64,000 nt of DNA from a bacterium (GCA_014896235.1 JADBKU010000018.1:13986-77985); one strand, 5' to 3'; positions 1-57,911 are shown, numbered from the stretch's first letter. Numbers and translations: made by a program. The notes: generated from the letters alone by a model not told the origin.

Positions 1-134
1 CATCGCGTGGCATGGAAACAGGGCGCGCTGCGGCTGGTGAAGGCTCTCATGTAGCCGGCGCGGCTGTGCATGCGGGCGGCGCGCCGCGCGATTGACGCGC
101 GCCGGTTCTGATTCAAGGCTGAGGAGGTTCGGCG

Positions 135-2084
135 ATGACGACCAAAGTGGCGCTGTTTTGCGGCGGACGAGGCAGCGCGACGATAATCCGTGAATTTCTG
201 CGGATGCCGGAAGTCGAACTGGCGCTGCTGGTCAACGCTTATGACGACGGACTGTCCACCGGAGCGCTGCGCGACTTCATTCCGGGGATGCTCGGTCCGT
301 CGGATTTTCGTAAAAATTTTTCGTATCTGCTCGACCCGCACTCGAAAAATCAGTACGCGCTCAAAACGCTGATCGAATACCGCCTGCCGATGACCTTCAG
401 CGCCGACGCCGCCGCGCGCATCCGCGACTTCGCTGAAACCGGCGCCCGCGACGGCATCGACCCGAAGATCGGCGAATTACTGGCGGCGCTCGATCCGCGC
501 ACGACCGTCGAAGTGCGCGGCCTGTTGAAGCAGTTTTTCGACTATGCCGCGGCGGGCGGACGTTCCTTCGATTTCCGCGATTGCGCGCTCGGCAACCTGC
601 TCTTCGCCGGCGCCTACCTGCGCCAGGGCCGCAACTTCAACGCCGCGGGCGAAGCGATGAGCCGGCTGGTAAGCTCGCGCGCCGTGCTGGTCAACGTCAG
701 CAACGGCGAAAACCGGATCTTGATGGCGCTCAAGGCCGACGGCGCGCTGCTCGCGCACGAGGCCGAAATCGTCGGCCCGCAGTCGCCGGCGCCGATTACC
801 GGCCTATATTTTCTGCCGCAGCAGATTCCTGCGGAAGAACTCATGGCGCTGGACGGCCTCAGCCTCGAGCGCAAGCGCGAATGGCTTGCCGAGCGCGATT
901 CGCCCCCGCAGCTTTCCGAGGAAGCGCGCCGCTTTCTGCGCGACGCCGACGCGATCGTTTACGGCCCCGGCACGCAGCATTCCTCGCTCCTGCCCAGTTA
1001 CCGAATCGCCGCGCCGGCGCTCAAATCCTCCCGCGCGCGCATCAAGGCGTTGATCGTCAATCTCGCGCCCGATCACGATATTCAGAATTTCACCGCGAGC
1101 GGCCTTGCCGACGTGATGCTCGAATACGCGGGCGATCCGGAAAACGAGGCGCGCATCGTCACCCACATCCTGATTCAGCATCCGCGCCGCCGCGGTTCCG
1201 GCCCCTCGCTCGATCCGGGGGCGCTCGAGGGACGCACGGCCTGGCGCGGCGCCATCGTCGTGCCCGGCTCGTTCCGCAACGAGATTCTTCCGCAAGTCCA
1301 CAACGGACGGGCGGTCGCGGGCGCGGTCGTCAACCTGCTCGAGCACGACGGCGCTCGCGAACAGCGTCCGTCGCTCGAAATTTTCTACGATCTCGCGCAG
1401 CGCCCGGCCGCCGGTCCGGCCCTCGTCGAAGAATTTCTCGAATTCGATTGGTGCGAACATTTTCGCCGCGTGGTGCTGCGCGTGCATGGCGCCGAACTGC
1501 CCGAGCTGCCGCCCCTGCCCGACCATCTTGCGATCGAGCGCTGGGGCGACGCCGGCGGCCGTTTCCCCGAAATCGGCATCGCCGCGGACTGGCTGCGCGC
1601 GGGCGGCGCCGACTATCTCGCGACCATCACCGGCGACGGCGAATACCGCTTGCGCGACATCGCCTTCGGCGTCAAAGTGCTCGAACAAAGCTCGTTCGGC
1701 GCCGTTTACGGCTCGCGCACGCAGAGCCGCCGGCAGTTCCGCCACTCCTTGCGTTCCGTTTACGGCGAAAAGGGCCTCGCCTACTTCGCCAGCTTCGCCG
1801 GCGCGTTTCTGCTGAGCGTCGCCTTCGCCGCCGGTTTCGGCGTGATCTTTTCCGATCCGCTGACCGGCTTCCGCATCTACCGCCGCCGCCGGATGGCCGG
1901 GATCGAGCAGGCGCTCGGCCGCGCGCGCCGCTCCGCCACGCCGACGACGATCACGCGGATGCTGGTGCGCAACCACGTCGAAATCGCCGAACTGCCGGTG
2001 CAATATCGGACCTTCGCCGGCTTTACCGATCCGCGCACGCGGCTCAAGCGCGGCATGAGCAACCTGCTCGGCCTGTTGCGATGA
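135..2084 (+). CDS. CofD/YvcK-family (2-phospho-L-lactate transferase-like, UPF0052) domain protein with a C-terminal GT2-like half-domain and one TM segment
   Basis: N-terminus VALFCGGRGSATI...VNAYDDGLSTGALRD matches the CofD/YvcK family signature (GG.G..K, VN.ADDG..SG.LR). The C-terminal roughly 250 aa carry GT2-like motifs (ATITGDGEY, FGAVYGSR, SDPLTGFRIYRRR resembling D.QSGFK.YRR) plus a hydrophobic segment. GAGGAGG sits 7 nt upstream of the ATG at 135. The stop overlaps the next start (ATGA). Confidence 0.6.
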   Translation: MTTKVALFCGGRGSATIIREFLRMPEVELALLVNAYDDGLSTGALRDFIPGMLGPSDFRKNFSYLLDPHSKNQYALKTLIEYRLPMTFSADAAARIRDFAETGARDGIDPKIGELLAALDPRTTVEVRGLLKQFFDYAAAGGRSFDFRDCALGNLLFAGAYLRQGRNFNAAGEAMSRLVSSRAVLVNVSNGENRILMALKADGALLAHEAEIVGPQSPAPITGLYFLPQQIPAEELMALDGLSLERKREWLAERDSPPQLSEEARRFLRDADAIVYGPGTQHSSLLPSYRIAAPALKSSRARIKALIVNLAPDHDIQNFTASGLADVMLEYAGDPENEARIVTHILIQHPRRRGSGPSLDPGALEGRTAWRGAIVVPGSFRNEILPQVHNGRAVAGAVVNLLEHDGAREQRPSLEIFYDLAQRPAAGPALVEEFLEFDWCEHFRRVVLRVHGAELPELPPLPDHLAIERWGDAGGRFPEIGIAADWLRAGGADYLATITGDGEYRLRDIAFGVKVLEQSSFGAVYGSRTQSRRQFRHSLRSVYGEKGLAYFASFAGAFLLSVAFAAGFGVIFSDPLTGFRIYRRRRMAGIEQALGRARRSATPTTITRMLVRNHVEIAELPVQYRTFAGFTDPRTRLKRGMSNLLGLLR

Positions 2085-2779
2085 CCGCCGCGCCCGCGTC
2101 GCCGCTCGCGGCGCGCAATTTTTTGTTCGATTTCGACGGCACCCTGGCCGATTCCGCCCCGCTCCACGCCGACGCTTTTCGCGCCGCGCTCGCGGTCGAG
2201 GCGCCCGCCGCGCTCGCCGGCTTCGATTACGAACCGCTCAAGGGATTGAACACGCGCGAGGCGTTCGAGCGGCTCGGCGTCGCCGGAGCGGAACGGCTGT
2301 CGCGATGCGTGGCGCGCAAGCGCGCCGCCTATCGCGACGCGGTGCGCGCCGGAGGTCTGCGCGCGTTCAGGGGCGCGCACGAATTGCTCGCCACGCTCCG
2401 CCGCGCCGGCGCGCGCAGCTACCTCGTCACCTCAGGCAGCTCCGCCTCGATCGCGCTCGCGCTTGAGCGGCTGGATCTCGCGTGCGCCTTCGCTGGAATT
2501 GTCGCCAGCGACGACGCCGCGCGCGGCAAGCCCGCTCCCGATCCTTATCTGGAATGCATGCGCCGCCATGCGCTCGACGCCGCCGGCTCCGTCGCGGTCG
2601 AAGACGCGCCGTCGGGCGTCGAATCGGCGCGCGCCGCCGGCCTCCGCGTGATCGGCGTGCACAATCCCATCGTCGCGCCGCTCGCCGATCGCTATTTTCC
2701 GACCCTGGACACGCTCGCCGCGGCGATCGCGGACGAACGCGCGCGACCGGCGCTGGCGCCCGGACCGCGCTATGCTTGA
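2081..2779 (+). CDS. HAD-IA family hydrolase (phosphatase, beta-phosphoglucomutase/phosphoglycolate phosphatase-like)
   Basis: FLFDFDGTLADS motif I, LVTSGS motif II, GKP, and EDAPSGVESARAAG motif III. Start overlaps the upstream stop by 4 nt. Confidence 0.7.
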   Translation: MTAAPASPLAARNFLFDFDGTLADSAPLHADAFRAALAVEAPAALAGFDYEPLKGLNTREAFERLGVAGAERLSRCVARKRAAYRDAVRAGGLRAFRGAHELLATLRRAGARSYLVTSGSSASIALALERLDLACAFAGIVASDDAARGKPAPDPYLECMRRHALDAAGSVAVEDAPSGVESARAAGLRVIGVHNPIVAPLADRYFPTLDTLAAAIADERARPALAPGPRYA

Positions 2780-3548
2780 CGCGATGAAGCTCTGCGCGCT
2801 CGTGCCCGCCGCCGGCCGCGGTTCGCGGCTCGGCCTGGATCGGCCGAAGATTCTCGCGGAAGTCGCGCCGGGCGTGACGATCCTGAGCGTCCTCAGCGGC
2901 AAGCTTCTGGCGATCGCCGACCATCTGAACATTATCGTCGCGCCCGACGCCGCCGATCTGATCGCCGCCGCGATCCGCTCCGGCCCCGGCGCGGATCGCG
3001 TCTCGACCGCGCTTCAGCCGGAGCCGCTCGGGATGGGCGACGCGATCTTTCGCGGCTACGACCGCTGGGCGTCAGCCGGCGCGATCATGGTCGTGTGGGG
3101 CGATCAGGTCTTCGTTTCCGCGGCGACCCTCGCCGCCGCCCGCGACGCCCATCGCGGCGCTCCGCGCACCGTCGTGATCCCCGTCGTGCCGCTCGCCGAA
3201 CCGTACGTCGAGTACGTCTTCGACGCGGGCCGCCTCGTCGCGGTCCGCCAGACCCGCGAGGGCGATCGCTGCGCGCCCGGCGGACTCGGCGACGTCGGCG
3301 CGTTCGTGCTCTCGGTCGCCGGATTGCGCGATGCGTGGCTGGAATACTCGGCTCTCGCGGCGCGCGGCGGCGCCACCGGCGAGATCAATTTCCTGCCGTT
3401 CCTGCCCTGGCTCGCCGCGCACGGATGGACCGTCACGCCGCTGCCGATCGGCGACCCGCGCGAGGCGCGCGGCGTCAACACGCCCGCCGACCTCGAATTT
3501 TTCCGCGCCGAATTTTCCCGCGCCCCGGTTGCGAAAACCGGACGCTGA
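2772..3548 (+). CDS. Nucleotidyltransferase (MobA/IspD/sugar-phosphate NTP-transferase fold)
   Basis: N-terminal LCALVPAAGRGSRLG matches the (L)xxAAGxGxR(L/M) NTP-binding loop of GT-A-fold nucleotidyltransferases. Overlaps the upstream gene by 8 nt. Confidence 0.55.
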   Translation: MLDAMKLCALVPAAGRGSRLGLDRPKILAEVAPGVTILSVLSGKLLAIADHLNIIVAPDAADLIAAAIRSGPGADRVSTALQPEPLGMGDAIFRGYDRWASAGAIMVVWGDQVFVSAATLAAARDAHRGAPRTVVIPVVPLAEPYVEYVFDAGRLVAVRQTREGDRCAPGGLGDVGAFVLSVAGLRDAWLEYSALAARGGATGEINFLPFLPWLAAHGWTVTPLPIGDPREARGVNTPADLEFFRAEFSRAPVAKTGR

Positions 3549-3573
3549 TCCCAAACGAGGACGAATCAATCCG

Positions 3574-4479
3574 ATGAGCGAAACCCTGTTGGTAACCGGC
3601 GGCGCCGGTTTTATCGGCAGCCATCTGTGCGAACTGCTGCTCGCCCGCGGCTATCGCGTGCGCGCCCTCGACAATCTGATTTACGGCCGCCGCGAATGGG
3701 TTCCGCGCGCCGCCGAATTCATCGAGGCCGACATCACCGACGTATCCGCCTGCCGCCGCGCGGCCAGCGGATGCGCGGGCGTGTTCCACATGGCCGCGAT
3801 GTCGCGCGCGGCGCCGTCGCTCGAAGCGATCGACGAATGCACGCGAAACAATATCGTCGGCACGCAGAACGTCCTGATCGCCGCGCGCGAGGCCGGCGTG
3901 CGCAAAGTCGTTTACAGCGGCTCTTCGACCTACTACGGCAACCAGCCAGGCCCGCATCGCGAATCGATGCGTCCCCAGTTCCTCAATTTCTACGCGCTGA
4001 GCAAGTACGCGGGCGAGGAGTACTGCCTGCTCTTCGATCGCGCGCTGGGCCTGCCCGCGATCGTCCTGCGCTACTTCAACGTTTACGGCCCGCGCCAGCC
4101 CGAACAGGGCGCCTACGCCCTTGTGCTGGGCGCGTTCCTGCGCCGATGGCGCGACGGAAAGACGCTTGAAATCCACGGCGACGGCTCGCAGCGCCGCGAT
4201 TTCATCCATGTTCGCGATATCGCCGAGGCGAACCTCGCCGCGTATCTGAGCCCCGCCCGCGGCTTCGCGCTCAACGTCGGCAGCGGCGAAAACATCTCGG
4301 TCAAAGAGCTTGCCGACATGATTTCGCCCGACCAGGTCCACGCGCCGCGCCGCGCCGGCGACGCCGAGGTCACCCTTGCGGATATTTCGCTGATCAAGGC
4401 GACGCTCGGATGGCGGCCGCGGGTGAGCTTCGCCGACGGCCTTGCCGAATTGAAACAGGCGATTCGCGCGGCCGGATGA
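3574..4479 (+). CDS. NAD-dependent epimerase/dehydratase (UDP-glucose 4-epimerase family SDR)
   Basis: LVTGGAGFIGSHL Rossmann motif, YALSKYAGE (YxxxK) catalytic motif, length 301 aa. Confidence 0.8.
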   Translation: MSETLLVTGGAGFIGSHLCELLLARGYRVRALDNLIYGRREWVPRAAEFIEADITDVSACRRAASGCAGVFHMAAMSRAAPSLEAIDECTRNNIVGTQNVLIAAREAGVRKVVYSGSSTYYGNQPGPHRESMRPQFLNFYALSKYAGEEYCLLFDRALGLPAIVLRYFNVYGPRQPEQGAYALVLGAFLRRWRDGKTLEIHGDGSQRRDFIHVRDIAEANLAAYLSPARGFALNVGSGENISVKELADMISPDQVHAPRRAGDAEVTLADISLIKATLGWRPRVSFADGLAELKQAIRAAG

Positions 4480-4504
4480 TCCGTTCGGCCTGGACGCTGC
4501 GGCG

Positions 4505-4789
4505 CTATTCGTCGTCCAGACCTTGCGCAGCCGGATCGGAGCTGAAATCGGAACCGCTGCTCGAGCGGAAAAAGCCGTCGTCAGGCGCATTGCGGGCGAT
4601 CCCAACGCAGAATGGATTATCGCTCCGTTCCGCGGCGCTCCAGCTCGGCGCCCGGTTCAGGAGCACGCCCGCGAGCGTCGCCGCCGCGATCGCGATCAGC
4701 ATCGCCGCGCCCACGCCGGGCGCTGACGCCGTGCGCCGCATTCGTTTCAGGCCACGCTTGCCGTGCGAACCGGAATTTGTGGACGCCAT
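4505..4789 (-). CDS. Hypothetical small membrane protein
   Basis: 94-aa ORF with one hydrophobic helix (AAMLIAIAAATLAGVLL). AAGGA-like RBS about 10 nt upstream. No recognisable family. Confidence 0.3.
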   Translation of the reverse strand: MASTNSGSHGKRGLKRMRRTASAPGVGAAMLIAIAAATLAGVLLNRAPSWSAAERSDNPFCVGIARNAPDDGFFRSSSGSDFSSDPAAQGLDDE

Positions 4790-4853
4790 CGCCTGATGTC
4801 CTTCGCAAGCCGAATTTTTTCAATCCCTCTTTGACGCCCCGGCTTCCGGCGCG

Positions 4854-5897
4854 TCATCGCCGCGGCTTGACTTCGAACGCCTCGGCCAGCAATTCGTACG
4901 ACCTCCGGCGCGCCTGATGGTCATGCACGATCGTCACCACCATCACCTCATCCACGCGCAGCTCCTCCGCCATCGCGAGGATTCCCGACCGCACCCGTTC
5001 GGGCGCGCCGGCGAAATATCTTGGCCATTCGCCGCTGTCGAAATCGCGCGGTTCCGGCGCCGGCCCAAGTTCGGCGATCGCTTCTTCGGGCGTCGGGATG
5101 GGCCGCACGTCGCCCTGCCGGATGCGGCGGCGGAACAGCCGCGCGCTCATCAGCAGCCGTTCGGCTTCCGCGTCGGTATCGGCGCAGACCGCGCCCAGCG
5201 CCAGAATCGTATAGGGATGCGCCAGGCGCGCCGACGGCGCGAAATGGCGCTGATAATGCTCGATCGCCGTGCGCGTCGAGCGCTGATCGATAAAATGGGC
5301 GAACGCATACGGCAATCCCAACTGCGCCGCCGCCGCTCCGCTCCACGGACTCGAACCCAGCAGCCAAAGCTCCGGACCGCCGGGAGTCGCCGGAGAAATC
5401 GCGATGCGGCTGAACGGATGCTCGGGCGGAAAACCGTCGCCGAGCCACGCCGCCAGCTCAACCAGTTGCTGGCCGAAATCGTCCGGCATCGGACCGCGCG
5501 TGCGCTCGCGCCGCAGCGCCAGCGTATCGAGCGGCGTGCCGCCGGGCGCGCGGCCCACGCCCAGATCGATCCGTCCGGGGTAGAGCGCGTGCAGCACGCG
5601 AAAGACCTCGGCCGTCTTGAATGGACTGTAATGCGGCAGCATCACGCCGCCCGAACCGACCCGGATGGTTTTCGTCTCGGCGGCGACGCGCGCGATCAGC
5701 ACTTCCGGCGCGGGACTGGCCAGCGCCGCGATCGCGTGATGCTCCGCGATCCAGTAGCGCTCGTAGCCGAGTTCGTCGGCCAGCCGCGCCAGATCGATCG
5801 TGTTGCGAAACGCGTCGGCCGGCGTGAGTCCCGCCGGCACCGGCGACTGATCGATGACCGATAGCTTCACGCCCCGCCCTGCCTCATACCATTTCAT
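4854..5897 (-). CDS. LLM-class (luciferase-like) flavin-dependent oxidoreductase
   Basis: YERYWIAEHH, GSGGVMLPHYSPFKTAE and GRIDLGVGRAPGG are typical of the bacterial luciferase-like monooxygenase family. 347 aa. Confidence 0.75.
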   Translation of the reverse strand: MKWYEAGRGVKLSVIDQSPVPAGLTPADAFRNTIDLARLADELGYERYWIAEHHAIAALASPAPEVLIARVAAETKTIRVGSGGVMLPHYSPFKTAEVFRVLHALYPGRIDLGVGRAPGGTPLDTLALRRERTRGPMPDDFGQQLVELAAWLGDGFPPEHPFSRIAISPATPGGPELWLLGSSPWSGAAAAQLGLPYAFAHFIDQRSTRTAIEHYQRHFAPSARLAHPYTILALGAVCADTDAEAERLLMSARLFRRRIRQGDVRPIPTPEEAIAELGPAPEPRDFDSGEWPRYFAGAPERVRSGILAMAEELRVDEVMVVTIVHDHQARRRSYELLAEAFEVKPRR

Positions 5898-5929: not shown

Positions 5930-8900
5930 TTATTCGGAGCGAAGCGCGCAGGCGCGGGTCGGCGGTTCGCTTCCGCCAGGCTGGCTCGCGGCGATCTTCG
6001 CGGGCGATACGATCAGCCGCTCCGGATCGATCCGCGTCTTCAAATAGGTGCGCACCGCTTCCGCCCGCGCCCGCCCCAGTCCGGGCAAATCGGCGGCGGA
6101 TACTTTCATGTTGGCGACCAGCAGCTTTTCCATCTCGGCCGGCGGCAGCGATTTCGCCATCCCGAGAAAATCGCGCGGCTTGTCGGGAATATCCGCCGCC
6201 TTGTACACCTGCTTGAGATACTTGTCGTATTCGCCGGTCGTAATCTGGAGATCGTCGAGGTTCACGTTCTCCTGTCCACTATCCTCGGCCTTGCGCTTGC
6301 GCACCAGGTAATCGACCTTGGCCTCGCACAGTCCCGGTTGGTCCAGCGACGGATCGACCACGCCGGTGATGTTGAGCTTCAAGGCGGAGCGCTGTTTGAG
6401 CGCCGCCGCTACCTCGTCGAGTTTCTTGCGATCGTCCGCGTTCAGCCGCGCGAAGCCCGGCTTGAACCCCACGTACGACAAGCCCTCGGCGCTGCCGCCG
6501 CCCGGCAGCGCCGAGGCCAGCAGTTTGAAGGGCGAGGTGATCGCCTTCATGATCAGGTTCTTGAAGGCGTACCAGATGACGCTGCCGAGGCTGAATTGCG
6601 GATTGTTGAGCGACCCCGAAACGGGAATGTTCAGATCGATCCGGCCCTGCGAATCCTTCAAGATCGCAACCGCCAGCCGCACCGGCAAATTGTAAACGCT
6701 CGGCTGCGGAACCTTGTCGCCAAAAGTGAGCTGATCGATCCGGATATGGTTCTGCGCGGTCAGATTGCGCTGGTCGAGCAGGTAATGCACATCGACGGTC
6801 AGCGTGCCCTGGGTAATTGGATAGCCCGTGTATTTGGCCGAATATGCGGAAAGGTCGGGCAGTTCGATGCCATTGGCCTTGGCGGTGATATCCAGATACG
6901 CCATCGGCGCCAGCGGGCTAACCGCGCCACTGATGCTGATCGGGGCGTTGCGGTTGACCATTCCGTTCAATGACACGTCCGCGGGCTTGGTCGAATCCGT
7001 GCCAAACTCGCCGATTTTGCCGGTCAAATCGGTCAAGTCCGCTGAATAGTTCGGCCGAATGAAGTTGTCGGTGTAGTTCGCTTCCCCGCCAGCCAGCACG
7101 ATCTCGCCAATCCTGATGTCGGCCGGCAGCGGCTTCGGCGGCGCGGCAGGCGCCTGCTGACCGGCGCCCGCCGCTTGCGGCGCCGGCGCGGGGGGCGGAC
7201 TCGGCGCGGGCGCAGCCACGGTTCCGTGCGCGCGCGTCAGCGAAGTCGGCGCCGCCTGCGGATTCGCCATGATATCGCTCAGGTTGAGCTTGCCGTCGCG
7301 ATTCAGAATGACGCGCGCGTAAAAGTCGTCGAAGGCGATCGCGCCCAGATGAATGCGCGGCTTTCCTTCGCCCATCGCAAAATCGATTCGCTCGAACCTG
7401 AGCGCGCGCCAGCGCGCGAACAGATCGCGCGTCAGCTTGTCGAGCATCCGCACGTCGCCGAGCGTCACGTCGCCGCGATAACTGATCCGCATCGCGCGCC
7501 GCTCCTGCGCGACGCGCACCGCGCCGCTGCTGCTGAGCATCGCGCGCGCGACAACCGCATTCATCCGCGCCGCCAGCACGGCGTTGGCCGGAGTCAGATC
7601 GAGGCGCCGCGTCACAACCCGCAAATTCGCCTTGAGCGGCTTGACCGCGGCGTCGCCCGTGATTTTGAGCGTGCCGCGCCGGTTGACGGTCGCGCCGATC
7701 GCAACGCCGAACGGTTTGGCGAAATTGCTGGTGACGTCTTTCAGATCGATATTGAGCGGCGCGATCGTCGCCCGCAATTCCGGCCGCTCGGTTTCGTCGC
7801 GCAGGGTGATCGCGGTTTTGTCGAACGCGACCGTCTTTATCTGGAATTGCCATTGCGGCGCTTTCGCCGTTGGCATGGCGGGCTTCCTTGCCGCGCGCCG
7901 CCGCTCCGGACGGCGCGGCGCGCGTGCGCGGCGCGGATGCGGACGGCCCCGGCGCGCTACGTGCGATTCGCTTTGCGTCGATTTGAGCAGCGACTCGAGG
8001 TTCAACCGGCCGCGCCGATCGCGAACGACCTCGACGCTGATTCCGTCCGTGCTCAGGCGATCGACGGTCGCCTGATGGGCCTGCAGGTCGGCCATCGCAA
8101 GTTGCGCGCCGATGCTCGTCCATCGGATCGGCTGCTGGCCGCGCTCTGGAAGCTGGATTTCAAAGCCGTCGAGCGACGCCTGCGCAGGCTCGACGTGAAG
8201 GTTGAACTTGCCCGGCGCATAGTCCGCTTTGACATTGGCGCTGGCGTTGACTTTGCCGGCCGCGATTTTGCCCGCAAGGATCGACTGCGCGAATCCCTGT
8301 AAGGCGGGAACGTCGATCTGCGACAGCGTTAGCTGGGTCGTCGCCGCGGAGCCTGCCAAATCCAGCGCGCCCTTTGCCGCGATCGCGCCGCCGCCGCTCA
8401 GCGTTGCGCCAAAGCTGTAGGGAATCGGCGCGCCAGCGCCGAGATGAAAATCGCTGACGTGCGCCGCGATCGATTGCATCGCGGTATTGACCGGCGCCGG
8501 CATCTGATTGTCCTGCAGGTTCACAGCGCCGTTGGTCACGTCGATCGAAACGACCTGCAAATCAAGCGCGGCTTTGCCTGGAGCGGCTGGCGCTCCGGCT
8601 TGAGCAGGCGGCGCGGGGGCGCCAGATGGCGCCGCGGGCGCGGCCTGGACCAGGGATGGATTTGACGTGACGGGACTGGCGCCGACCGCCACAGCCGGAG
8701 CACGCATGGCAGCTCCCGGGGGCGGCGCCGGACTCGAGGTGGCGCCAGATGGCGCCGCTGGCGCAGGCGTGAACCCGACGCCGGCCGCCGGCGGCGTCGA
8801 TTGCGGCGGCGCTTCGCTCGAAGACGCCAGTCGCGAAAAATTCGTCGTTCCATCGGCGTTGAGCGTCAAACTGGCCTTTAAGCCATCCAATTTAATCGCC

Positions 8901-9880
8901 GCCAGGTGCACATAATTGTGGAGCGGCTCGACGTTGTTAAGCACCACCAGCAGTCGATTGAATCCGACCAGCGGCTGGCCGGATTGATCGCGTACGTCGA
9001 GCTGATCGAGCCGCACCCTGCCCCCGATTCGAATTTGCGGGCCTTGGGTCGCTTGAACAAAATGAATCAGCAAATAGGTCGATAACGCGCCATGCGGCAT
9101 CGTGATCGGCAATTTGCGCGGAACATAGGCAAGATACTTCGAGATTTCGAGCGAACGCAGGTTTAGAACAAGTTCAGACTCCGGCTCGGCGCCGAACGGC
9201 CGCGCCGTGCCCGCCATCGCCAGCTTGCTTCCATCGACGACCATCGCCACATACGGCTTGACGTAAACCTTCACATACGCGGGAAGATTCGCGATAAACG
9301 GCACGTCGATCCGGAGATTCTGAACCGTATGGCGCTGGCCGAGCACCTGGTCGTCAAAATTGATAGCGCCGCCGCTGATTTGAATATTCGAAACCGAGAA
9401 ATGGAACGGCTTGCTCGGTGGCGAGGCCGCCGACGCGGGCTTGGGCGGCGGGATCAAATCCGAAAAATTGAAGGTGTTCGGCGCGGTTCGGACGATATTT
9501 ATCGTCGGATTCGTTATCGCGACCTCCTCAACGACCGGGGCGAGGCGCCACAGCGAATTCCAGGAGGCCTCGACGCCCAAGTGACCGATTTCAACGAAGG
9601 CGCCGCCGCCACTGCGCCTGGCGACCGCGAGCTTGTCGATTTCCAGGCGCAGACTGTACGGATTGAACGCGATTTCGCCCACGCCGACTTGCCGCTTGAG
9701 GCTTTTCGCGACCGATCCGGTCAGTACATGCCGCAGGATTGCGGGAACGCCGAAAAAGCCAAAGCCGGTATAAATCACCAGCGCGGCGACGATTCCGATC
9801 GTCCATCGGCGAACGCGCCGCGATTCAGGCAATCGTTTCGCTTTTTCGCTCGCGCGCCGGAAGATTTCTCGTAATGCCAC
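5930..9880 (-). CDS. AsmA-family/DUF748-type giant envelope protein (outer-membrane biogenesis, TamB/AsmA-like)
   Basis: 1316 aa. N-terminal TM anchor (WTIGIVAALVIYTGFGFFGVPAIL), long beta-rich body, several Pro/Ala-rich low-complexity linkers, C-terminal conserved block. The architecture is typical of the AsmA/DUF748 family. Confidence 0.55.
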   Translation of the reverse strand: MALREIFRRASEKAKRLPESRRVRRWTIGIVAALVIYTGFGFFGVPAILRHVLTGSVAKSLKRQVGVGEIAFNPYSLRLEIDKLAVARRSGGGAFVEIGHLGVEASWNSLWRLAPVVEEVAITNPTINIVRTAPNTFNFSDLIPPPKPASAASPPSKPFHFSVSNIQISGGAINFDDQVLGQRHTVQNLRIDVPFIANLPAYVKVYVKPYVAMVVDGSKLAMAGTARPFGAEPESELVLNLRSLEISKYLAYVPRKLPITMPHGALSTYLLIHFVQATQGPQIRIGGRVRLDQLDVRDQSGQPLVGFNRLLVVLNNVEPLHNYVHLAAIKLDGLKASLTLNADGTTNFSRLASSSEAPPQSTPPAAGVGFTPAPAAPSGATSSPAPPPGAAMRAPAVAVGASPVTSNPSLVQAAPAAPSGAPAPPAQAGAPAAPGKAALDLQVVSIDVTNGAVNLQDNQMPAPVNTAMQSIAAHVSDFHLGAGAPIPYSFGATLSGGGAIAAKGALDLAGSAATTQLTLSQIDVPALQGFAQSILAGKIAAGKVNASANVKADYAPGKFNLHVEPAQASLDGFEIQLPERGQQPIRWTSIGAQLAMADLQAHQATVDRLSTDGISVEVVRDRRGRLNLESLLKSTQSESHVARRGRPHPRRARAPRRPERRRAARKPAMPTAKAPQWQFQIKTVAFDKTAITLRDETERPELRATIAPLNIDLKDVTSNFAKPFGVAIGATVNRRGTLKITGDAAVKPLKANLRVVTRRLDLTPANAVLAARMNAVVARAMLSSSGAVRVAQERRAMRISYRGDVTLGDVRMLDKLTRDLFARWRALRFERIDFAMGEGKPRIHLGAIAFDDFYARVILNRDGKLNLSDIMANPQAAPTSLTRAHGTVAAPAPSPPPAPAPQAAGAGQQAPAAPPKPLPADIRIGEIVLAGGEANYTDNFIRPNYSADLTDLTGKIGEFGTDSTKPADVSLNGMVNRNAPISISGAVSPLAPMAYLDITAKANGIELPDLSAYSAKYTGYPITQGTLTVDVHYLLDQRNLTAQNHIRIDQLTFGDKVPQPSVYNLPVRLAVAILKDSQGRIDLNIPVSGSLNNPQFSLGSVIWYAFKNLIMKAITSPFKLLASALPGGGSAEGLSYVGFKPGFARLNADDRKKLDEVAAALKQRSALKLNITGVVDPSLDQPGLCEAKVDYLVRKRKAEDSGQENVNLDDLQITTGEYDKYLKQVYKAADIPDKPRDFLGMAKSLPPAEMEKLLVANMKVSAADLPGLGRARAEAVRTYLKTRIDPERLIVSPAKIAASQPGGSEPPTRACALRSE

Positions 9881-10264
9881 TGGATTTTTTCATGACGCTC
9901 CGCCAGGGAGCGCCCTCCTTTCCGGTCCGGCCGCGCGACAATCGTACAGAAAGGCCTATGCGCATTGTCGGCATACCATAGGGAATTGAGCGCAATCCAC
10001 CCGCGCAATGCCGCGGGTTTGCCGATAGCGCAAAATTGATTCGGTCCTCGTAATGCCGCTGGTTGCAGCCGTCAGGAGTCCGTTTGGGAAGGAATTTATT
10101 GAGGATTTGCGACCATTTTCCGCGCTTGATTTTTTTTTCGGCGCGGCGATGAATAATTCGGCCGAGGCCTCGTCGAATAGTATTGGAAGCGGTAGCCAAG
10201 GCCGCTCCCCGGTTGCAACCTCCTCCCTGCAGTCGGGGCCGTCCGCCGCAAACGGACGGTGAAA

Positions 10265-12883: not shown

Positions 12884-14510
12884 AGCGAAACTCAAGGAAC
12901 TTAAGCCGGCGGACCTGAAGCGCGAGGTGGGATCGCGGCGCGATCTAGTGGTGACGCTCAGCCGCCGTTCCGAGCCGCGGCTGATCGCCTACGGCGACGA
13001 GTTTCTGTACGAAAAGCTGCCGGCGGGAACGCGCGTCGTCTATCCCCCGCCGCCGCTCGACGCGCTGCCCGATCCGGACACCGCGATCCGCTACGCCCTG
13101 CTCCATCCGCTCAACGCCGATCCGCTGTTCGCGCAGCTCAATCCTAACATGCGCGTCACCATCGCGATCGACGACATCAGCCTGCCGCTGCCGCCGATGC
13201 GCCGTCCCGATATCCGCGAACGGCTGCTCAACCAGGTGCTGCAAACGCTGGCGGATTACGGCGTCGATGACGTTCATCTGATCGTCGCCACCGCGCTCCA
13301 TCGCCGGATGACCGAAGCGGAAATCCGCCGGATGGTGGGCGAGCGCGCTTTCAAGCAGTTCTGGCCGGAACGGCTCTACAACTTCGACGGCGAGGATCGG
13401 GCGAACCTCACGATGCTCGGCAAGACCGATCATGGCGAGGAGGTGTGGCTGTCGCGACGCGCGGCGGAATCGGATTTGCTGATTTATCTGAATATCAACC
13501 TGGTGCCGATGGACGGCGGGCATAAATCGGTCGCCGTCGGACTCGCGCCCTATCAAAGCCTGCGCCACCATCATAATCCCGCCACGCTTCGCGACAGCCA
13601 CTCATATATGGACCCGACGCGCTCGGCGCTGCATAGTTCGGCGAACCGGATGGGCCGGATAGTCAATCGCGAAGTGAATGTATTTTCGATCGAGACCGCC
13701 GTGAATACCCAGATGTACGGCGGGATGCTCGACTTCCTGCAAAAGAATGAAGATCGCTTCAGCGACTGGGATCGGATGCGGCTCAAGGGCTTCCGCTGGA
13801 CGCTCGGCGGAATGTCGAACGAATTGCGCCGCCAGGTGATGCATCAGTACGCGGCGCCATACGGGATGACGGGGGTGTGGGCGGGCGAGACCGAAACCGT
13901 CCATCGGCAGGCGCTGGCGCGGGTGTTCCAGCAGTACGCGGTTCCGGTAAAGGGACAATCCGACGTGCTGATCGTCGGCGTGCCCTATATCTGTCCCTAC
14001 AACGTCAATTCGATCATGAATCCCGTCCTCGTGCAGTGCACCGGGATGGGCTACCTGTTCAACATGTACCGCAACAAGCCGCTGGTGAAACCCGGCGGCA
14101 CGATGATTATCTGCCATCCGCTGCGCGACGAATTTCATCCTGAGCATCATCCGAGCTACATCGAATTTTTCCATCGATGCCTGGCCGAGACGACCGACTC
14201 GATCGAACTGGAAAAGCGGTTCGAAGCCGAGTTCGCGCGCAACCCGACCTATATCCACATGTACCGTTACGGACACGCCTATCACGGCGTGCATCCGTTC
14301 TACATGTGGTACTGGGGCGAGCCGGCGCGCCAGCACGTGGGGCGGGTGATCGCGGCCGGATGCCAGGAGCCGGAGGTCGCCGCCCGGCTGGGATGGGAGT
14401 CCGCGGACACGCTCGACGAGGCGATTGCGATGGCCACGTCCGAGCATGGACGGTCGGCGACAATTACCTATCTGCACTTGCCGCCGCTGGTGATCGCCGA
14501 TGTCGAATAG
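12870..14510 (+). CDS. LarA-family (lactate racemase-like, DUF2088 N-domain) protein
   Basis: 546 aa. Conserved blocks (VTIAIDDISLPLPP, LIVATALHRRMTEAE, MDGGHKSVAVGL, HHHNPATL) resemble nickel-pincer-dependent LarA-family racemase/epimerases. Overlaps neighbours by 14 and 11 nt. Confidence 0.55.
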   Translation: MARPEAKLKELKPADLKREVGSRRDLVVTLSRRSEPRLIAYGDEFLYEKLPAGTRVVYPPPPLDALPDPDTAIRYALLHPLNADPLFAQLNPNMRVTIAIDDISLPLPPMRRPDIRERLLNQVLQTLADYGVDDVHLIVATALHRRMTEAEIRRMVGERAFKQFWPERLYNFDGEDRANLTMLGKTDHGEEVWLSRRAAESDLLIYLNINLVPMDGGHKSVAVGLAPYQSLRHHHNPATLRDSHSYMDPTRSALHSSANRMGRIVNREVNVFSIETAVNTQMYGGMLDFLQKNEDRFSDWDRMRLKGFRWTLGGMSNELRRQVMHQYAAPYGMTGVWAGETETVHRQALARVFQQYAVPVKGQSDVLIVGVPYICPYNVNSIMNPVLVQCTGMGYLFNMYRNKPLVKPGGTMIICHPLRDEFHPEHHPSYIEFFHRCLAETTDSIELEKRFEAEFARNPTYIHMYRYGHAYHGVHPFYMWYWGEPARQHVGRVIAAGCQEPEVAARLGWESADTLDEAIAMATSEHGRSATITYLHLPPLVIADVE

Positions 14511-55581: not shown

Positions 55582-56300
55582 CGAGTTGGCCGAATATATC
55601 CGGCGGACCGGCGCTCGACGATCAGCGCTGGCGGATGCTCTGGATTGTGCCGTTATCGGTCGCGCTCTGGTTCGTCATCCTTGAAGGCTTCGCGCGCGTG
55701 CTGGAACGATCCGCCCCGCCGGCGCCCGAATCGACGACGGTACAGGCGCAAATCGTCGAACTGCCGCCGCAATCGAACCCGGCCGGAGCAATCGCTCATC
55801 CGGCCGCCGCCGCGTCGCCGGGTCCTATAGAAAAGCCAAAGCCCGTCGTTCGTCACCACCCGATGCCGCGACATCGCGAGGTGGTTCATCCTCCATCACC
55901 CTCCGGGACGGCCAAAGCGACCGAACAACCCCATGAGGCCGCGCCGGCTTCGAGTGCTGCGCCCGCCGGCGGAGCATCAACGCCACCTGGTCCCACGTCT
56001 CCGGCCGGGGGCGGCTTCAACCTCGGCGGCGGCGCATCTGGCGCCCGCGCGGTCTATGCGCCAACGCCGACCATTCCCGACGATCTGCGCGACCAGCAAA
56101 TCGATACGGTCGCGATAGCTCATTTTATCGTCAAGGCCGACGGAACCGACGACGTAACCCTGTCGCAACCAACGTCGATTCCCGAGTTGAACCAGGTCTT
56201 GCTCGACACGCTCAAGCAATGGCGCTTCTTTCCGGCGGTGCGCAATGGCGTTGCGATCGACTCCGAATTTGACGTACGAATTCCTATAACCGTTCAATGA
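55578..56300 (+). CDS. tonB: Energy transducer TonB (Pro-rich spacer, C-terminal TonB domain)
   Basis: N-terminal TM, Pro-rich linker, C-terminal PTIPDDLRDQQIDTVAIAHFIVKADGT...LKQWRFFPA. Overlaps exbD by 4 nt. Confidence 0.75.
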   Translation: MTSWPNISGGPALDDQRWRMLWIVPLSVALWFVILEGFARVLERSAPPAPESTTVQAQIVELPPQSNPAGAIAHPAAAASPGPIEKPKPVVRHHPMPRHREVVHPPSPSGTAKATEQPHEAAPASSAAPAGGASTPPGPTSPAGGGFNLGGGASGARAVYAPTPTIPDDLRDQQIDTVAIAHFIVKADGTDDVTLSQPTSIPELNQVLLDTLKQWRFFPAVRNGVAIDSEFDVRIPITVQ

Positions 56301-57904: not shown

Positions 57905-57911
57905 TCGCACG

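What the first reader, a model, noticed from the sequence alone, without database searches (positions are those of the whole stretch)
135..2084. Chimeric CofD/YvcK-like phosphotransferase fused to the C-terminal half of a GT2 glycosyltransferase
The first about 330 aa are a clear CofD/YvcK (PF01933-like) domain. The last about 250 aa carry GT2 C-terminal motifs (TITGDGEY resembling DADxQ, and SDPLTGFRIYRRR resembling QSGFKxYRR) and a TM segment, but no N-terminal DxD Rossmann half. This looks like domain replacement: a GT2 acceptor-binding half grafted onto a phospho-group transferase. I do not recognise this architecture as a described one.
Basis: partly seen in the sequence, partly recalled or inferred. 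Interest (0 to 1): 0.65.

Follow-up and report, generated by a model that had tools for sequence, protein, structure and literature searches.

The report
CofD-like enzyme fused to degenerate glycosyltransferase
The gene is real and encodes a widespread but unstudied two-part enzyme, a CofD/YvcK-type phosphotransferase joined to a complete but degenerate lipid-carrier glycosyltransferase domain, that most likely helps build a lipid-linked sugar donor for decorating the cell envelope.

Summary
The 649-aa ORF (135-2084) is real and is not a frameshift artefact. The same fused architecture occurs in relatives from 263 species-level genomes across more than ten phyla.

Residues 1 to about 405 are a CofD/YvcK domain (Pfam 5e-19; Foldseek YvcK 1.5e-15). 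Residues about 410-649 are a whole GT-A fold closest to the polyprenyl-phosphate glycosyltransferases ArnC, GtrB and DPMS. They are not a grafted C-terminal half. The N-terminal Rossmann-like half is present, but its nucleotide-sugar motifs are lost. The residues aligned to the lipid-phosphate-binding residues of ArnC are invariant.

More distant relatives are CofD plus a bona fide Pfam GT2, and some are NTP-transferase+CofD+GT2 triple fusions. The window family therefore looks like a degenerated descendant of an older fusion.

The gene sits in a conserved, overlapping operon: (SDR)-GT2-fusion-(HAD)-GlmU-like nucleotidyltransferase-GalE-like epimerase. In some lineages the operon lies next to GT-C glycosyltransferases. 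The window's own lineage has lost the free GT2.

My best reading: at the membrane, the CofD domain transfers a phospho-linked group from the operon-made NDP-sugar to a polyprenyl-phosphate-linked acceptor held by the degenerate GT-A domain. The chemistry is inferred, not shown. I found no paper on this family.

The parts
1..51 (+). 3' end (last 17 codons) of the upstream operon gene, a 359-aa HpnA-like SDR epimerase/dehydratase (EpiB359). The window cuts it off.
   Evidence: tblastn of the L001 gene gives 100% identity over residues 343-359. The full gene is seen on the identical contig L001 at 8839-9918. NCBIfam best hit is HpnA, E=1e-36, below its cut-off.
121..127 (+). Ribosome-binding site GAGGAGG, 8 nt upstream of the ATG. 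The 83-nt gap (52-134) is where every other lineage carries a free GT2 gene.
   Evidence: Sequence read directly. Gene-order comparison across 86 loci.
135..2084 (+). The fusion ORF, 649 aa: a CofD/YvcK-like domain plus a degenerate polyprenyl-phosphate-GT-like GT-A domain.
   Evidence: ORF list. At least 1313 homologues, with the top 120 nearly all full length. 263 species-level genomes carry a relative. AF2 model pLDDT 86.6, pTM 0.81.
135..1349 (+). CofD/YvcK (PF01933) domain, residues 1 to about 405. Invariant motifs: GGRGS 10-14, NAYDDGLSTG 34-43, GPSDFRKN 54-61, GN 153-154, GPGTQ 277-281, N309, DHD 313-315 and H389.
   Evidence: Pfam. PDB profile hits to YvcK-type structures 2q7x, 2ppv and 2hzb, with alignments. 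Foldseek: 2hzb 1.5e-15 (TMt 0.83) and FbiA 1.8e-7. Column counts. The FbiA metal ligands D45 and D57 lie in GDD...PDL and correspond by motif to D37 and D57 here.
330..584 (+). Helical insertion of about 85 residues (66-150, four helices) between the PSDFRKN and GN motifs. It is absent from YvcK structures. It is a candidate acceptor-binding cap (inference).
   Evidence: DSSP of the model. Gap in the HMMER alignments to YvcK chains between profile positions about 72 and 134.
1362..2081 (+). Complete GT-A fold domain, residues about 410-649, closest to ArnC, GtrB and DPMS. It is not recognised by Pfam.
   Evidence: No Pfam hit at E<=10. No PDB sequence hit. Foldseek: ArnC 9bhc 6.5e-7 over about 255 columns, also GtrB, PcManGT and GpgS. 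hhalign to the neighbouring GT2 gives E=1e-3. BLASTP to the free GT2s of related operons gives about 1e-8. Whole-length MAFFT alignment.
1371..1628 (+). N-terminal Rossmann-like half of the GT-A domain (residues 413-498). The donor motifs are degenerate: PxYNE has become FYDLAQR, and (D/N)DGS has become RVHGA (consensus Asn at 451). The half has its own invariant residues: R423, E433, E436, W439 and W486.
   Evidence: Strands b1-b4 in the model. Alignment with ArnC and canonical GT2s. Column counts. dN/dS of 0.03-0.09 for this half.
1629..1646 (+). TGDGEY (residues 499-504), the remnant of the DXD motif. T499 stands in place of ArnC D100. D501 corresponds to D102 and is invariant. E503 corresponds to Q104.
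   Evidence: Alignments. ArnC residue roles from PMC12690121. Column counts.
1710..1730 (+). GSRTQSR (residues 526-532). R528 aligns to ArnC R128, and R532 lies close to ArnC R131. ArnC R128 is a UndP-phosphate ligand; R131 is listed among its substrate-coordinating residues. G526, S527, R528, Q530 and R532 are invariant.
   Evidence: Alignments. PMC12690121. Column counts.
1773..1862 (+). Hydrophobic 30-residue segment (547-576), a probable interfacial or re-entrant membrane anchor at the lipid-acceptor entrance.
   Evidence: Hydropathy scan. Helix 548-568 with lower pLDDT. The same insertion occurs in canonical fused GT2s and in the standalone GT2 P0209.
1851..1880 (+). SDPLTGFRIY (residues 573-582). 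D574 is invariant and aligns to D158 of the ArnC GDYGCMLRAY motif.
2081..2779 (+). HAD-superfamily enzyme (232 aa, beta-phosphoglucomutase-like). Its start overlaps the stop of the fusion gene (ATGA).
   Evidence: Pfam HAD_2 2e-31. NCBIfam beta-PGM family. PDB best hits are BT2127 and beta-PGM. Found next to the fusion in 56 of 86 loci.
2772..3548 (+). Sugar-1-phosphate nucleotidyltransferase (258 aa, NTP_transf_3, like the uridylyltransferase domain of GlmU). It overlaps the HAD gene by 8 nt.
   Evidence: Pfam. NCBIfam GlmU models. PDB GlmU alignment, residues 9-254 to 11-259, E=4e-10. Found next to the fusion in 77 of 86 loci. In P0213 and P0226 it is fused to CofD-GT2.
3571..4479 (+). GalE-like SDR (302 aa), a probable NDP-hexose or NDP-HexNAc 4-epimerase and the last gene of the operon.
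   Evidence: Pfam Epimerase 1e-59. PDB 6wjb and 4zrm at about 3e-46, also WbpP and WbgU. An SDR epimerase homologue (either type) lies next to the fusion in 74 of 86 loci; the 301-aa GalE-like type is the one most often found.

Best explanation
The ORF encodes a membrane-peripheral, two-domain member of an uncharacterised but widespread family.

Domain 1 (residues 1 to about 405) is a CofD/YvcK-type NDP-ligand-binding phosphotransferase fold. Its glycine-rich loop is intact, and the two aspartates that match the catalytic-metal ligands of FbiA are invariant.

Domain 2 (residues about 410-649) is a complete GT-A fold derived from a polyprenyl-phosphate glycosyltransferase of the ArnC/GtrB/DPMS kind. 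It has lost the uridine/ribose-binding motifs and the first Asp of DXD. It keeps the residues aligned to the lipid-phosphate-binding and active-site residues of ArnC (R528, R532, D574, R625, D501) and a hydrophobic interfacial helix.

The gene belongs to a conserved, overlapping operon that also makes an NDP-sugar: a HAD mutase or phosphatase, a GlmU-like nucleotidyltransferase and a GalE-like 4-epimerase. In most lineages the operon carries a free, canonical ArnC-like GT2. In several lineages it lies next to GT-C glycosyltransferases.

Proposed mechanism. Shown here: the domain identities, the operon, the gene fusions and the residue conservation. Inferred: the operon builds a polyprenyl-phosphate-linked donor for extracytoplasmic glycosylation. 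Within that pathway, the degenerate GT-A domain holds the lipid-linked acceptor at the membrane. That acceptor is either the polyprenyl-P-sugar made by the free GT2 or polyprenyl phosphate itself. The CofD domain then attacks the beta-phosphate of the NDP-sugar, or other NDP-X, supplied by the nucleotidyltransferase. This releases NMP and forms a phosphodiester or diphosphate link, in the same way that CofD/FbiA uses the product of CofC/FbiD.
For: Domain identities.

Whole-length relationship of the C-domain to real GT2s.

Residue mapping to ArnC ligands (PMC12690121), made through alignments, with invariance counts. FbiA metal ligands D45 and D57 (PMC7253369; sequence context) match the invariant D37 and D57.

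Operon conservation in 86 loci: GT2 in 76, NTP in 77, SDR in 74, HAD in 56. An unbiased ORF clustering gives the same set.

Gene fusions that link the steps: NTP+CofD+GT2 (P0213, P0226), HAD+NTP (L091) and GT-A+HAD (P0225).

The free GT2 aligns over its full length only with polyprenyl-P GTs: ArnC 3e-10 and DPMS in the PDB, and PgfS and AglJ in NCBIfam.

GT-C partners: PMT_2 and GtrA beside the canonical relatives. The 618-aa neighbour in Legionellales operons of the window type models as a GT-C fold: pLDDT 92; STT3 5.7e-6 and ArnT 7e-6, with all of the top 17 hits GT-C enzymes. 34 of 82 loci have a polytopic membrane ORF within 7 kb.

The NTP is GlmU-like and the SDR is UDP-hexose/HexNAc-4-epimerase-like. 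YvcK binds UDP-Glc and UDP-GlcNAc (PMC5482804).

Both domains are under purifying selection even in the lineage without the free GT2.
Against: No activity has been measured for any member, and YvcK-type proteins have no demonstrated catalytic activity.

Of the four YvcK residues implicated in NDP binding, only N217 is conserved (as N309). T13 aligns with R12, R300 with V388, and Y264 cannot be aligned.

I could not read the model coordinates, so I did not test whether the two domains share one active site.

The window's own lineage lacks the free GT2 and any nearby GT-C. In this organism the acceptor is therefore unknown, or is encoded elsewhere.

No flippase is conserved in the window-type operons.

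Even the canonical fused GT2s lack the first Asp of DXD, so loss of that residue alone does not prove loss of GT activity.
Confidence: 0.45

Rival explanations
1. Regulatory or scaffolding subunit. The CofD/YvcK domain is a non-catalytic UDP-sugar sensor, like GlmR. The degenerate GT-A domain is a pseudo-enzyme. Its hydrophobic helix anchors the TM-less free GT2 to the membrane, in the way DPM3 or Ppm2 serve DPM1 or Ppm1. The protein would then gate the GT2 according to the NDP-sugar supply.
For: The CofD domain is closer to YvcK than to CofD/FbiA. YvcK/GlmR is known only as a UDP-sugar-binding regulator (PMC5482804 and PMC7525490). The free GT2 has no TM segment, whereas the fusion has the only strongly hydrophobic segment. 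The two genes overlap or abut in 76 of 86 loci. The donor-binding motifs of the fused GT-A are lost.
Against: The window lineage has lost the free GT2 yet keeps both domains of the fusion under strong purifying selection. NTP+CofD+GT2 triple fusions mimic the CofC-to-CofD substrate hand-over and are harder to explain for a sensor. The aspartates matching the FbiA metal ligands, and a family-specific DHD motif, are invariant. The DPM3/Ppm2 analogy comes from my own knowledge and was not tested.
Confidence: 0.25
2. Truly bifunctional enzyme. The GT-A domain is still an active glycosyltransferase that uses an unusual donor or binding mode, and the CofD domain catalyses a second, consecutive step on the same lipid-linked intermediate.
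For: The second DXD Asp (D501), D574, R528 and R625 are invariant. The N-terminal half of the GT-A domain has its own invariant polar residues (R423, E433, E436, plus near-invariant D419 and E479) and a very low dN/dS, as expected for a ligand site rather than a decayed one. The canonical fused relatives also lack the first DXD Asp yet score strongly as PF00535.
Against: PxYNE and the uracil/ribose-binding Asp (ArnC D48) are gone in all 61 aligned members. Neither Pfam nor a PDB sequence profile recognises the domain. A canonical GT2 is nearly always encoded alongside, which suggests the glycosyl-transfer role was handed over to it.
Confidence: 0.15
3. A genuine CofD/FbiA working in biosynthesis of F420 or an F420-like cofactor.
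For: Pfam family name CofD. Database annotations read '2-phospho-L-lactate transferase'. Luciferase-like (LLM) oxidoreductase genes lie nearby.
Against: NCBIfam reports only YvcK-type and GAK-type models, far below their cut-offs, and no CofD equivalog. A profile of the family finds YvcK-type structures but not CofD or FbiA in the PDB. The conserved neighbours are glycan-pathway genes, and no other F420 biosynthesis gene turned up among the conserved neighbours or the annotated flanks. The LLM genes are not conserved neighbours.
Confidence: 0.02
4. Assembly or sequencing artefact: two adjacent genes merged by a frameshift, or a chimeric contig.
For: None found.
Against: Among the 79 distinct loci kept from independent genomes, those on contigs long enough are matched by tblastn over essentially the whole 649-aa query. 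An identical protein is found on 5 contigs from 4 samples. The domains co-evolve (r=0.88). The AF2 model is confident across the junction.
Confidence: 0.01

Closest known systems
YvcK/GlmR (UPF0052; PDB 2hzb, 2o2z, 2ppv, 2q7x)
   Same: Same fold (Foldseek 1.5e-15, TMt 0.83). Shared motifs GGxG, DDG..(S/T)G.LR, P(G/S)D.R(K)N, GNL..AG and GPG(S/T)..(S/T)..P. The NDP-binding Asn (N217) is conserved as N309.
   Different: The score is far below the YvcK NCBIfam cut-off (54 against 196 bits). There is an extra helical insertion of about 85 aa. T13, Y264 and R300 of the UDP-sugar site are not conserved. The protein is fused to a GT-A domain and sits in a glycan operon; none of the genes seen around it has a YvcJ/RapZ-type domain.
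CofD/FbiA with CofC/FbiD (the phospho-transfer step of F420 biosynthesis)
   Same: Same fold (FbiA 1.8e-7). The two aspartates matching the FbiA metal ligands are invariant. The domain is paired, and in some relatives fused, with an NTP_transf_3-type nucleotidyltransferase that would make its NDP-X substrate.
   Different: There is no sequence-level match to CofD or FbiA. There is no F420 gene context. The nucleotidyltransferase is GlmU-like, that is a sugar-1-P type, and not CofC.
Polyprenyl-phosphate glycosyltransferases ArnC, GtrB and DPMS (GT2, GT-A fold)
   Same: Best structural match for the C-domain (ArnC 6.5e-7, about 255 columns). The counterparts of ArnC R128, R131, D102, D158 and R205 are conserved, and there is a hydrophobic helix at the lipid entrance.
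   Different: There are no C-terminal TM helices. PxYNE, the D48 counterpart and the first DXD Asp (the proposed catalytic base D100) are lost. The domain is not recognised by PF00535.
Three-component periplasmic glycosylation systems (GtrA/B/C, ArnC/ArnT, Und-P-pentofuranose systems; PMC11127046)
   Same: The operons combine a polyprenyl-P GT with GT-C enzymes and, in one relative, a GtrA-type flippase. Auxiliary HAD and SDR enzymes accompany the lipid-linked donor pathway, as in the pentofuranose systems.
   Different: An extra CofD-type module and a second, fused GT-A domain are present; no described system has them. In most window-type loci, including the window itself, no flippase or GT-C is adjacent.
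Canonical CofD+GT2 and NTP+CofD+GT2 fusion proteins (uncharacterised; e.g. P0219, P0231, P0254, P0213 from Candidatus Moraniibacteriota)
   Same: Same domain order. Homologous C-domains with a shared xDxEY motif, hydrophobic insertion, (S/T)DxLTG(F/L/Y)(R/K) and E(I/V)P..Y..R motifs. The accompanying HAD, NTP and free GT2 genes are clearly homologous and probably orthologous.
   Different: Their GT2 domain still has PxLNE and DGGS and scores 1e-18 to 1e-25 against PF00535. Their operons carry radical-SAM and methyltransferase genes instead of SDR epimerases.

Membership tests
CofD superfamily domain (Pfam PF01933) | Score above the Pfam gathering threshold | tested here: met
   69 bits against a cut-off of 30, E=5e-19, residues 6-349.
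CofD/FbiA proper (F420-0 / dehydro-F420-0 synthase) | Sequence-level match to CofD/FbiA models or structures | tested here: not met
   NCBIfam returns only GAK-CofD-like and YvcK models, below their cut-offs. The family profile does not reach 3c3d or 6uvx at E<=10. Only a fold-level match exists.
CofD/FbiA proper (F420-0 / dehydro-F420-0 synthase) | Two aspartates that coordinate the catalytic metal (FbiA D45, D57) | tested here: met
   The motif context GD45D...PD57L corresponds to YD37D...PSD57F. D37, D38 and D57 are invariant in all 61 sequences. The correspondence is by motif, not by superposition.
CofD/FbiA proper (F420-0 / dehydro-F420-0 synthase) | Genomic association with F420 biosynthesis genes | tested here: not met
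   No other F420 biosynthesis gene appeared among the conserved neighbours or the annotated flanks of the loci examined.
YvcK/GlmR (TIGR01826) | Score above the NCBIfam subfamily cut-off | tested here: not met
   53.9 bits against a cut-off of 196.
YvcK/GlmR (TIGR01826) | UDP-sugar-binding residues (B. halodurans T13, N217, Y264, R300) | tested here: inconclusive
   N217 corresponds to N309, which is invariant. T13 aligns with R12, R300 with V388, and Y264 falls in a region that cannot be aligned.
YvcK/GlmR (TIGR01826) | Synteny with yvcJ/rapZ | tested here: not met
   The conserved neighbours are GT2, HAD, NTP-transferase and SDR genes. None of the genes seen around the fusion has a YvcJ/RapZ-type domain, and the larger ORFs of the window show none either.
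Glycosyltransferase family 2 (PF00535) | Sequence match to the family model | tested here: not met
   No Pfam hit for residues 351-649 at E<=10. No PDB sequence hit with the domain profile. Homology shows up only through hhalign (1e-3), a profile search reaching PF00535-positive proteins and BLASTP at about 1e-8 to the free GT2s of related operons.
Glycosyltransferase family 2 (PF00535) | GT-A fold | tested here: met
   Foldseek prob 1.0, E=6.5e-7 to ArnC over about 255 columns. Many other GT-A enzymes follow in the list.
Glycosyltransferase family 2 (PF00535) | DXD metal/donor motif and the nucleotide-binding Asp after strand b2 | tested here: not met
   DXD is T499-G-D501, so only the second Asp remains. 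The position of ArnC D48 is Asn or His (N in 45 and H in 8 of 61 sequences). PxYNE has been replaced by YDLxxR.
Polyprenyl-phosphate GTs (ArnC/GtrB/DPMS type) | Arg/Asp residues that hold the lipid phosphate (ArnC R128, R131, R137, D158, R205) | tested here: met
   R528, R532 and D574 are invariant, and R625 is present in 59 of 61 sequences. The R137 counterpart (R540) is present in only 42 of 61. The mapping is by sequence alignment.
Polyprenyl-phosphate GTs (ArnC/GtrB/DPMS type) | C-terminal transmembrane helices that anchor and tetramerise the enzyme | tested here: not met
   The protein ends 70 residues after the last GT-A strands. The only hydrophobic segment (547-576) lies inside the fold.
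Polyprenyl-phosphate GTs (ArnC/GtrB/DPMS type) | Transfer of a sugar from an NDP-sugar to polyprenyl phosphate | not testable with these tools
   Needs a biochemical assay.
Three-component periplasmic glycosylation systems | Co-occurrence of a polyprenyl-P GT, a flippase and a GT-C transferase | tested here: inconclusive
   Met in relatives: L088 has GT2+GtrA+PMT, L087 has PMT_2, and Legionellales loci have a GT-C-fold neighbour. Not met in the window itself or in most window-type loci, where only the GT2 is conserved.

The most novel reading that the evidence does not exclude
The CofD-like domain is a previously unrecognised class of membrane-associated phospho-sugar (phosphoglycosyl) transferase. 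It would use the degenerate GT-A domain as a polyprenyl-phosphate-binding module and attack the beta-phosphate of a UDP-sugar with the lipid phosphate, or with a hydroxyl of a lipid-linked sugar. This would release UMP and make polyprenyl-diphospho-sugar or a sugar-1-phosphate-decorated lipid-linked donor. That would be a third structural solution to phosphoglycosyl transfer, beside the MraY/WecA and PglC/WbaP types. It would also give the enigmatic YvcK/GlmR family its first catalytic precedent with UDP-sugars.
Probability: 0.12. Interest if true: 0.85.

Novelty: new variant of a known kind. Interest (0 to 1): 0.58.

Why it matters
YvcK/GlmR-type proteins are widespread, bind UDP-sugars and affect cell-envelope integrity, yet no catalytic role is known for them. 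Their only characterised enzymatic relatives are the F420 enzymes CofD and FbiA.

This family places a YvcK-like CofD domain in one polypeptide with a lipid-carrier glycosyltransferase domain, and in some relatives with the nucleotidyltransferase as well. The gene lies inside operons that otherwise look like polyprenyl-phosphate sugar-donor pathways feeding GT-C enzymes.

That gives a concrete, testable hypothesis: CofD-type phospho-transfer from an NDP-sugar onto a lipid-linked acceptor. It also gives a defined set of genes to test it with, some of them in cultured Bradyrhizobium strains (names as in the database records).

If the hypothesis is right, it adds a new enzymatic module to the known three-component envelope glycosylation systems. 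It may also point to a new kind of phospho-sugar modification of envelope glycans in many soil and freshwater phyla.

If the domain turns out to be only a sensor or scaffold, it is still a clear example of a glycosyltransferase degenerating into a pseudo-enzyme partner.

Tried and rejected
- Pfam on the isolated C-terminus at E<=10 found nothing.
- A PDB sequence search with the C-domain profile at E<=10 found nothing. The whole-protein profile found only YvcK-type chains.
- The promoter and terminator scan of 1-5000 found nothing above the shuffled expectation.
- Model coordinates are not exposed, so I could not measure the inter-domain geometry or test for a shared active site.
- Eight literature searches on CofD or YvcK combined with glycosyltransferase, undecaprenyl or polyprenyl terms found no paper on this architecture. 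Two of the eight served only to find the ArnC and FbiA structure papers.
- The frameshift or chimera explanation was rejected.
- The F420 role was rejected on context and scores.
- I looked for the free GT2, a GtrA-type flippase or a GT-C in the 64-kb window and found none.
- I considered that the hydrophobic segment is a true TM helix. I rejected this because it lies between strands of one GT-A sheet.
- The polytopic neighbours in different lineages are not detectably homologous to one another by BLASTP. I tested only the Legionellales type structurally.


Full report
**1. The observation**

An ATG-initiated ORF of 649 codons occupies exactly 135-2084 on the + strand. A GAGGAGG ribosome-binding site lies 8 nt upstream.

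Pfam places a CofD domain (PF01933) at residues 6-349, with E=5e-19 and 69 bits against a cut-off of 30. NCBIfam gives only weak matches, far below their cut-offs, to the YvcK subfamily and the 'GAK system CofD-like' model. It gives no CofD equivalog. Residues 351-649 alone hit no Pfam family even at E<=10.

The ORF is not an artefact. The identical protein is encoded on five contigs from four samples. A word-indexed search found at least 1313 homologues, and the best 120 are nearly all 620-700 aa and cover 97-100% of the query. A scan of one genome per species found relatives in 263 species. Among the 79 distinct loci kept, those on contigs long enough are matched over essentially the whole 649-aa query.

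**2. Anatomy**

An AlphaFold2 model built on 61 full-length homologues is confident (mean pLDDT 86.6, pTM 0.81). Foldseek against the PDB splits it cleanly into two domains.

- The N-terminal part matches YvcK/UPF0052 structures (2hzb E=1.5e-15, TMt 0.83) and, more weakly, FbiA (1.8e-7).
- The C-terminal part matches the polyprenyl-phosphate glycosyltransferase ArnC (9bhc E=6.5e-7, about 255 aligned columns), then GtrB, the Pyrobaculum mannosyltransferase PcManGT, GpgS and other GT-A enzymes.

The HMMER alignments to YvcK chains run to the VHNG motif at residues 388-391. The CofD/YvcK domain is therefore about 405 residues long, not 330. The extra length is a four-helix insertion at residues 66-150.

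The C-domain (about 410-649) has the full GT-A strand order: b1 413-419, b2 445-451, b3 465-469 and b4 494-498, followed by TGDGEY.

**3. What is kept and what is lost in the GT-A domain**

I aligned the domain with ArnC, with the free GT2 encoded next to homologues, and with more distant fused GT2s. I then read the residue roles from the ArnC structure paper (PMC12690121).

Kept:
- ArnC TLD100-A-D102-L-Q104-N aligns with IT499-G-D501-G-E503-Y504. D501 is invariant, and T499 replaces the first Asp, which is the proposed catalytic base.
- R128 and R131 correspond to R528 and R532 in the invariant G-S-R-T-Q-S-R.
- D158 corresponds to the invariant D574 in SDPLTGFR.
- R205 corresponds to R625, present in 59 of 61 sequences.

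Lost:
- The PxYNE motif after b1 is FYDLAQR.
- The uracil/ribose-binding Asp after b2 (ArnC D48) is Asn or His.

The N-terminal half is nevertheless strongly constrained. It has its own invariant residues (R423, E433, E436, W439, W486), and its dN/dS is 0.03-0.09.

The 30-residue hydrophobic stretch (547-576) lies between strands of the same sheet. It aligns with the ArnC helix that starts at the UndP ligand R137. It is therefore best read as an interfacial or re-entrant anchor, not a membrane-spanning helix.

**4. The CofD domain**

All family motifs are invariant: GGRGS, NAYDDGLSTG, GPSDFRKN, GN, GPGTQ and N309.

The FbiA catalytic metal is held by D45 and D57 (PMC7253369), which lie in GD45D...PD57L. 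The matching positions here, D37 and D57, are invariant.

Of the four YvcK residues implicated in UDP-sugar binding (PMC5482804), only N217 is conserved, as N309. The nucleotide pocket therefore differs in detail.

**5. Evolutionary origin**

I searched a profile of the C-domain alone against 1.84 billion representative proteins. It found 444 representatives at E<=1e-3. Nearly all full-length hits carry the domain at positions of about 400-650 in proteins of 600-690 aa.

The more distant hits are decisive.
- P0219, P0231 and P0254 are CofD plus a bona fide PF00535 GT2 (1e-18 to 1e-22 for the two I scanned myself, P0219 and P0231; the domains of P0254 come from the precomputed annotation).
- P0213 (Candidatus Moraniibacteriota) and P0226 are NTP_transf_3+CofD+GT2 triple fusions.
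- P0225 is a GT-A-like domain fused to a HAD domain.
- L091 encodes a HAD+NTP fusion.

The window's C-domain aligns with these over its whole length. It shares their xDxEY motif, hydrophobic insertion, (S/T)DxLTG(F/Y)(R/K) and E(I/V)P..Y..R motifs. The free GT2s of those operons hit it by plain BLASTP at about 1e-8.

Within the window family, the pairwise identities of the two domains correlate at r=0.88. The history is therefore an old CofD-GT2 fusion in which this family's GT2 lost its donor motifs. It is not a recent graft of half a domain.

**6. Genomic context**

In 86 loci, the fusion lies in a same-strand operon whose genes often overlap: (359-aa HpnA-like SDR) - free GT2 of about 249 aa - fusion - (HAD) - NTP_transf_3 - 301-aa GalE-like SDR. 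The counts are GT2 in 76 loci, NTP in 77, SDR in 74 and HAD in 56. An unbiased all-against-all clustering of the flanking ORFs gives the same set.

What the neighbouring genes look like:
- The free GT2 aligns over its full length only with polyprenyl-P GTs: ArnC 3e-10 and DPMS in the PDB, and PgfS and AglJ in NCBIfam. It has no TM helix.
- The NTP gene's closest solved relatives are GlmU uridylyltransferase domains.
- The SDR's closest solved relatives are UDP-hexose/HexNAc 4-epimerases.
- The HAD's closest solved relatives are beta-phosphoglucomutase and BT2127.

The canonical relatives have homologous HAD, NTP and free GT2 genes. They also have PMT_2 GT-C enzymes, a GtrA-type flippase in one case, and other 10-TM proteins.

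In Legionellales and other gammaproteobacterial operons of the window type, a 618-aa protein with no Pfam match precedes the GT2. Modelled on 37 homologues (pLDDT 92.2), it is a GT-C fold: STT3 5.7e-6, ArnT 7e-6, then PglB, AftA/B and ALG9. Overall, 34 of 82 loci have a polytopic membrane ORF within 7 kb.

**7. The window's own lineage is reduced**

In the window and its close relatives (L001-L004, L008, L009, L012, L086; 83-100% identity; annotated as 'Deltaproteobacteria bacterium' MAGs, with the next relatives in Candidatus Binataceae), the free GT2 is missing. The SDR gene ends 83 nt before the fusion gene. The 64-kb window contains no GT2n homologue. Among its larger ORFs I found no GT-C and no GtrA-type gene.

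Both domains nevertheless remain under purifying selection in this lineage, with dN/dS of 0.03-0.2.

**8. Mechanism**

What is shown: two intact folds; retention of the aspartates that match the FbiA metal ligands; retention of the residues aligned to the lipid-phosphate-binding residues of ArnC, with loss of the nucleoside-binding motifs; an internal hydrophobic anchor; a conserved operon for NDP-sugar supply plus a canonical polyprenyl-P GT; gene fusions that link HAD to NTP to CofD to GT2; and GT-C partners in several lineages.

What is inferred: the system makes a polyprenyl-phosphate-linked donor for extracytoplasmic glycosylation. The fusion acts at the membrane. Its GT-A remnant presents the lipid-linked acceptor. 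Its CofD domain carries out a CofD/FbiA-type attack on the beta-phosphate of the operon-made NDP-sugar and releases NMP.

Known three-component pathways offer an analogy. They contain a cytoplasmic modifier of the lipid-linked sugar. Examples are the HAD phosphatase and the SDR epimerase of the Und-P-pentofuranose systems (PMC11127046) and, from my own knowledge, the deformylase ArnD and the deacetylase NaxD.

The main rival is that the protein is a non-catalytic UDP-sugar-sensing and membrane-anchoring partner of the TM-less free GT2. The loss of that GT2 in the window lineage and the NTP+CofD+GT2 fusions argue against this rival, but they do not exclude it.

**9. Novelty and verdict**

I found no paper describing this architecture. 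Databases label it only 'CofD family protein'.

It is not categorically new, because both domains and the surrounding pathway type are known. It is an uncharacterised variant: a CofD/YvcK module built into a polyprenyl-phosphate glycosylation system, with a glycosyltransferase domain that has turned into a probable acceptor-binding module.

Interest is moderate to high, because the family offers a direct route to testing whether YvcK-like proteins can be UDP-sugar-dependent phosphotransferases.

Noticed in passing
window 52-134, compared with L010, L013, L076 and others: The window's lineage has lost the free ArnC-like GT2 gene. In every other lineage examined that gene is present, and in nearly all it lies immediately upstream of the fusion (between the upstream SDR gene and the fusion where that SDR is present). 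Only an 83-nt gap remains here. No copy lies elsewhere in the 64-kb window.
   Followed up: partly
window 14500-18909 (+): A 1469-aa multidomain ORF: fatty-acyl reductase (NAD_binding_4/Sterile) + AMP-binding + phosphopantetheine carrier + PlsC-type acyltransferase. From memory, it resembles the myxobacterial ether-lipid enzyme ElbD.
   Followed up: no
window 5930-9880 (-): A 1316-aa DUF748/AsmA/YhdP-like protein with long Ala/Pro-rich low-complexity linkers. It is likely an inter-membrane lipid-transport protein. It is not a conserved neighbour of the operon.
   Followed up: no
L006 7395-9251 (and homologues P0271-P0322): A family of 52 proteins with no Pfam or NCBIfam match, encoded just upstream of the GT2 in gammaproteobacterial operons. 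It models confidently as a GT-C glycosyltransferase (STT3/ArnT-like), with an invariant Asp in the first loop (D35).
   Followed up: yes
P0213, P0226, P0225; L091 12630-14093: Alternative gene fusions within the same module: NTP+CofD+GT2 (one from Candidatus Moraniibacteriota), GT-A-like+HAD, and HAD+NTP. In these relatives the operon carries radical-SAM and methyltransferase genes instead of SDR epimerases.
   Followed up: partly
P0261 (1977 aa): A very long protein with 15 separate matches to profile positions 76-114 of the C-domain, which is the region around the DXD remnant. This repeat pattern is unexplained.
   Followed up: no
L001 432-8732 (upstream of the operon on the contig identical to the window): A possible small-molecule gene cluster: type III polyketide synthase, FAD monooxygenase, YceI, ABC exporter, 2OG-Fe(II) oxygenase with a PqqD domain, SDR, and a luciferase-like oxidoreductase. 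It is not conserved next to the fusion in other lineages.
   Followed up: no
L054 6955-9228 and 25 other alphaproteobacterial loci: A 757-aa TPR-repeat protein is encoded directly upstream of the free GT2 in Rhizomicrobium and Micropepsales-type loci. I did not examine its C-terminal part.
   Followed up: no
window 56297-59447 (+): Two overlapping ORFs (56297-57904 and 57750-59447), each matching the PmbA/TldD metallopeptidase C-terminal domain. The rest of the window is ordinary chromosomal content: FtsK, RNase J, Lhr helicase, RecO, a UPF0004/radical-SAM/TRAM methylthiotransferase-type protein, a hybrid histidine kinase, a TonB-dependent receptor and an Omp85 protein.
   Followed up: no
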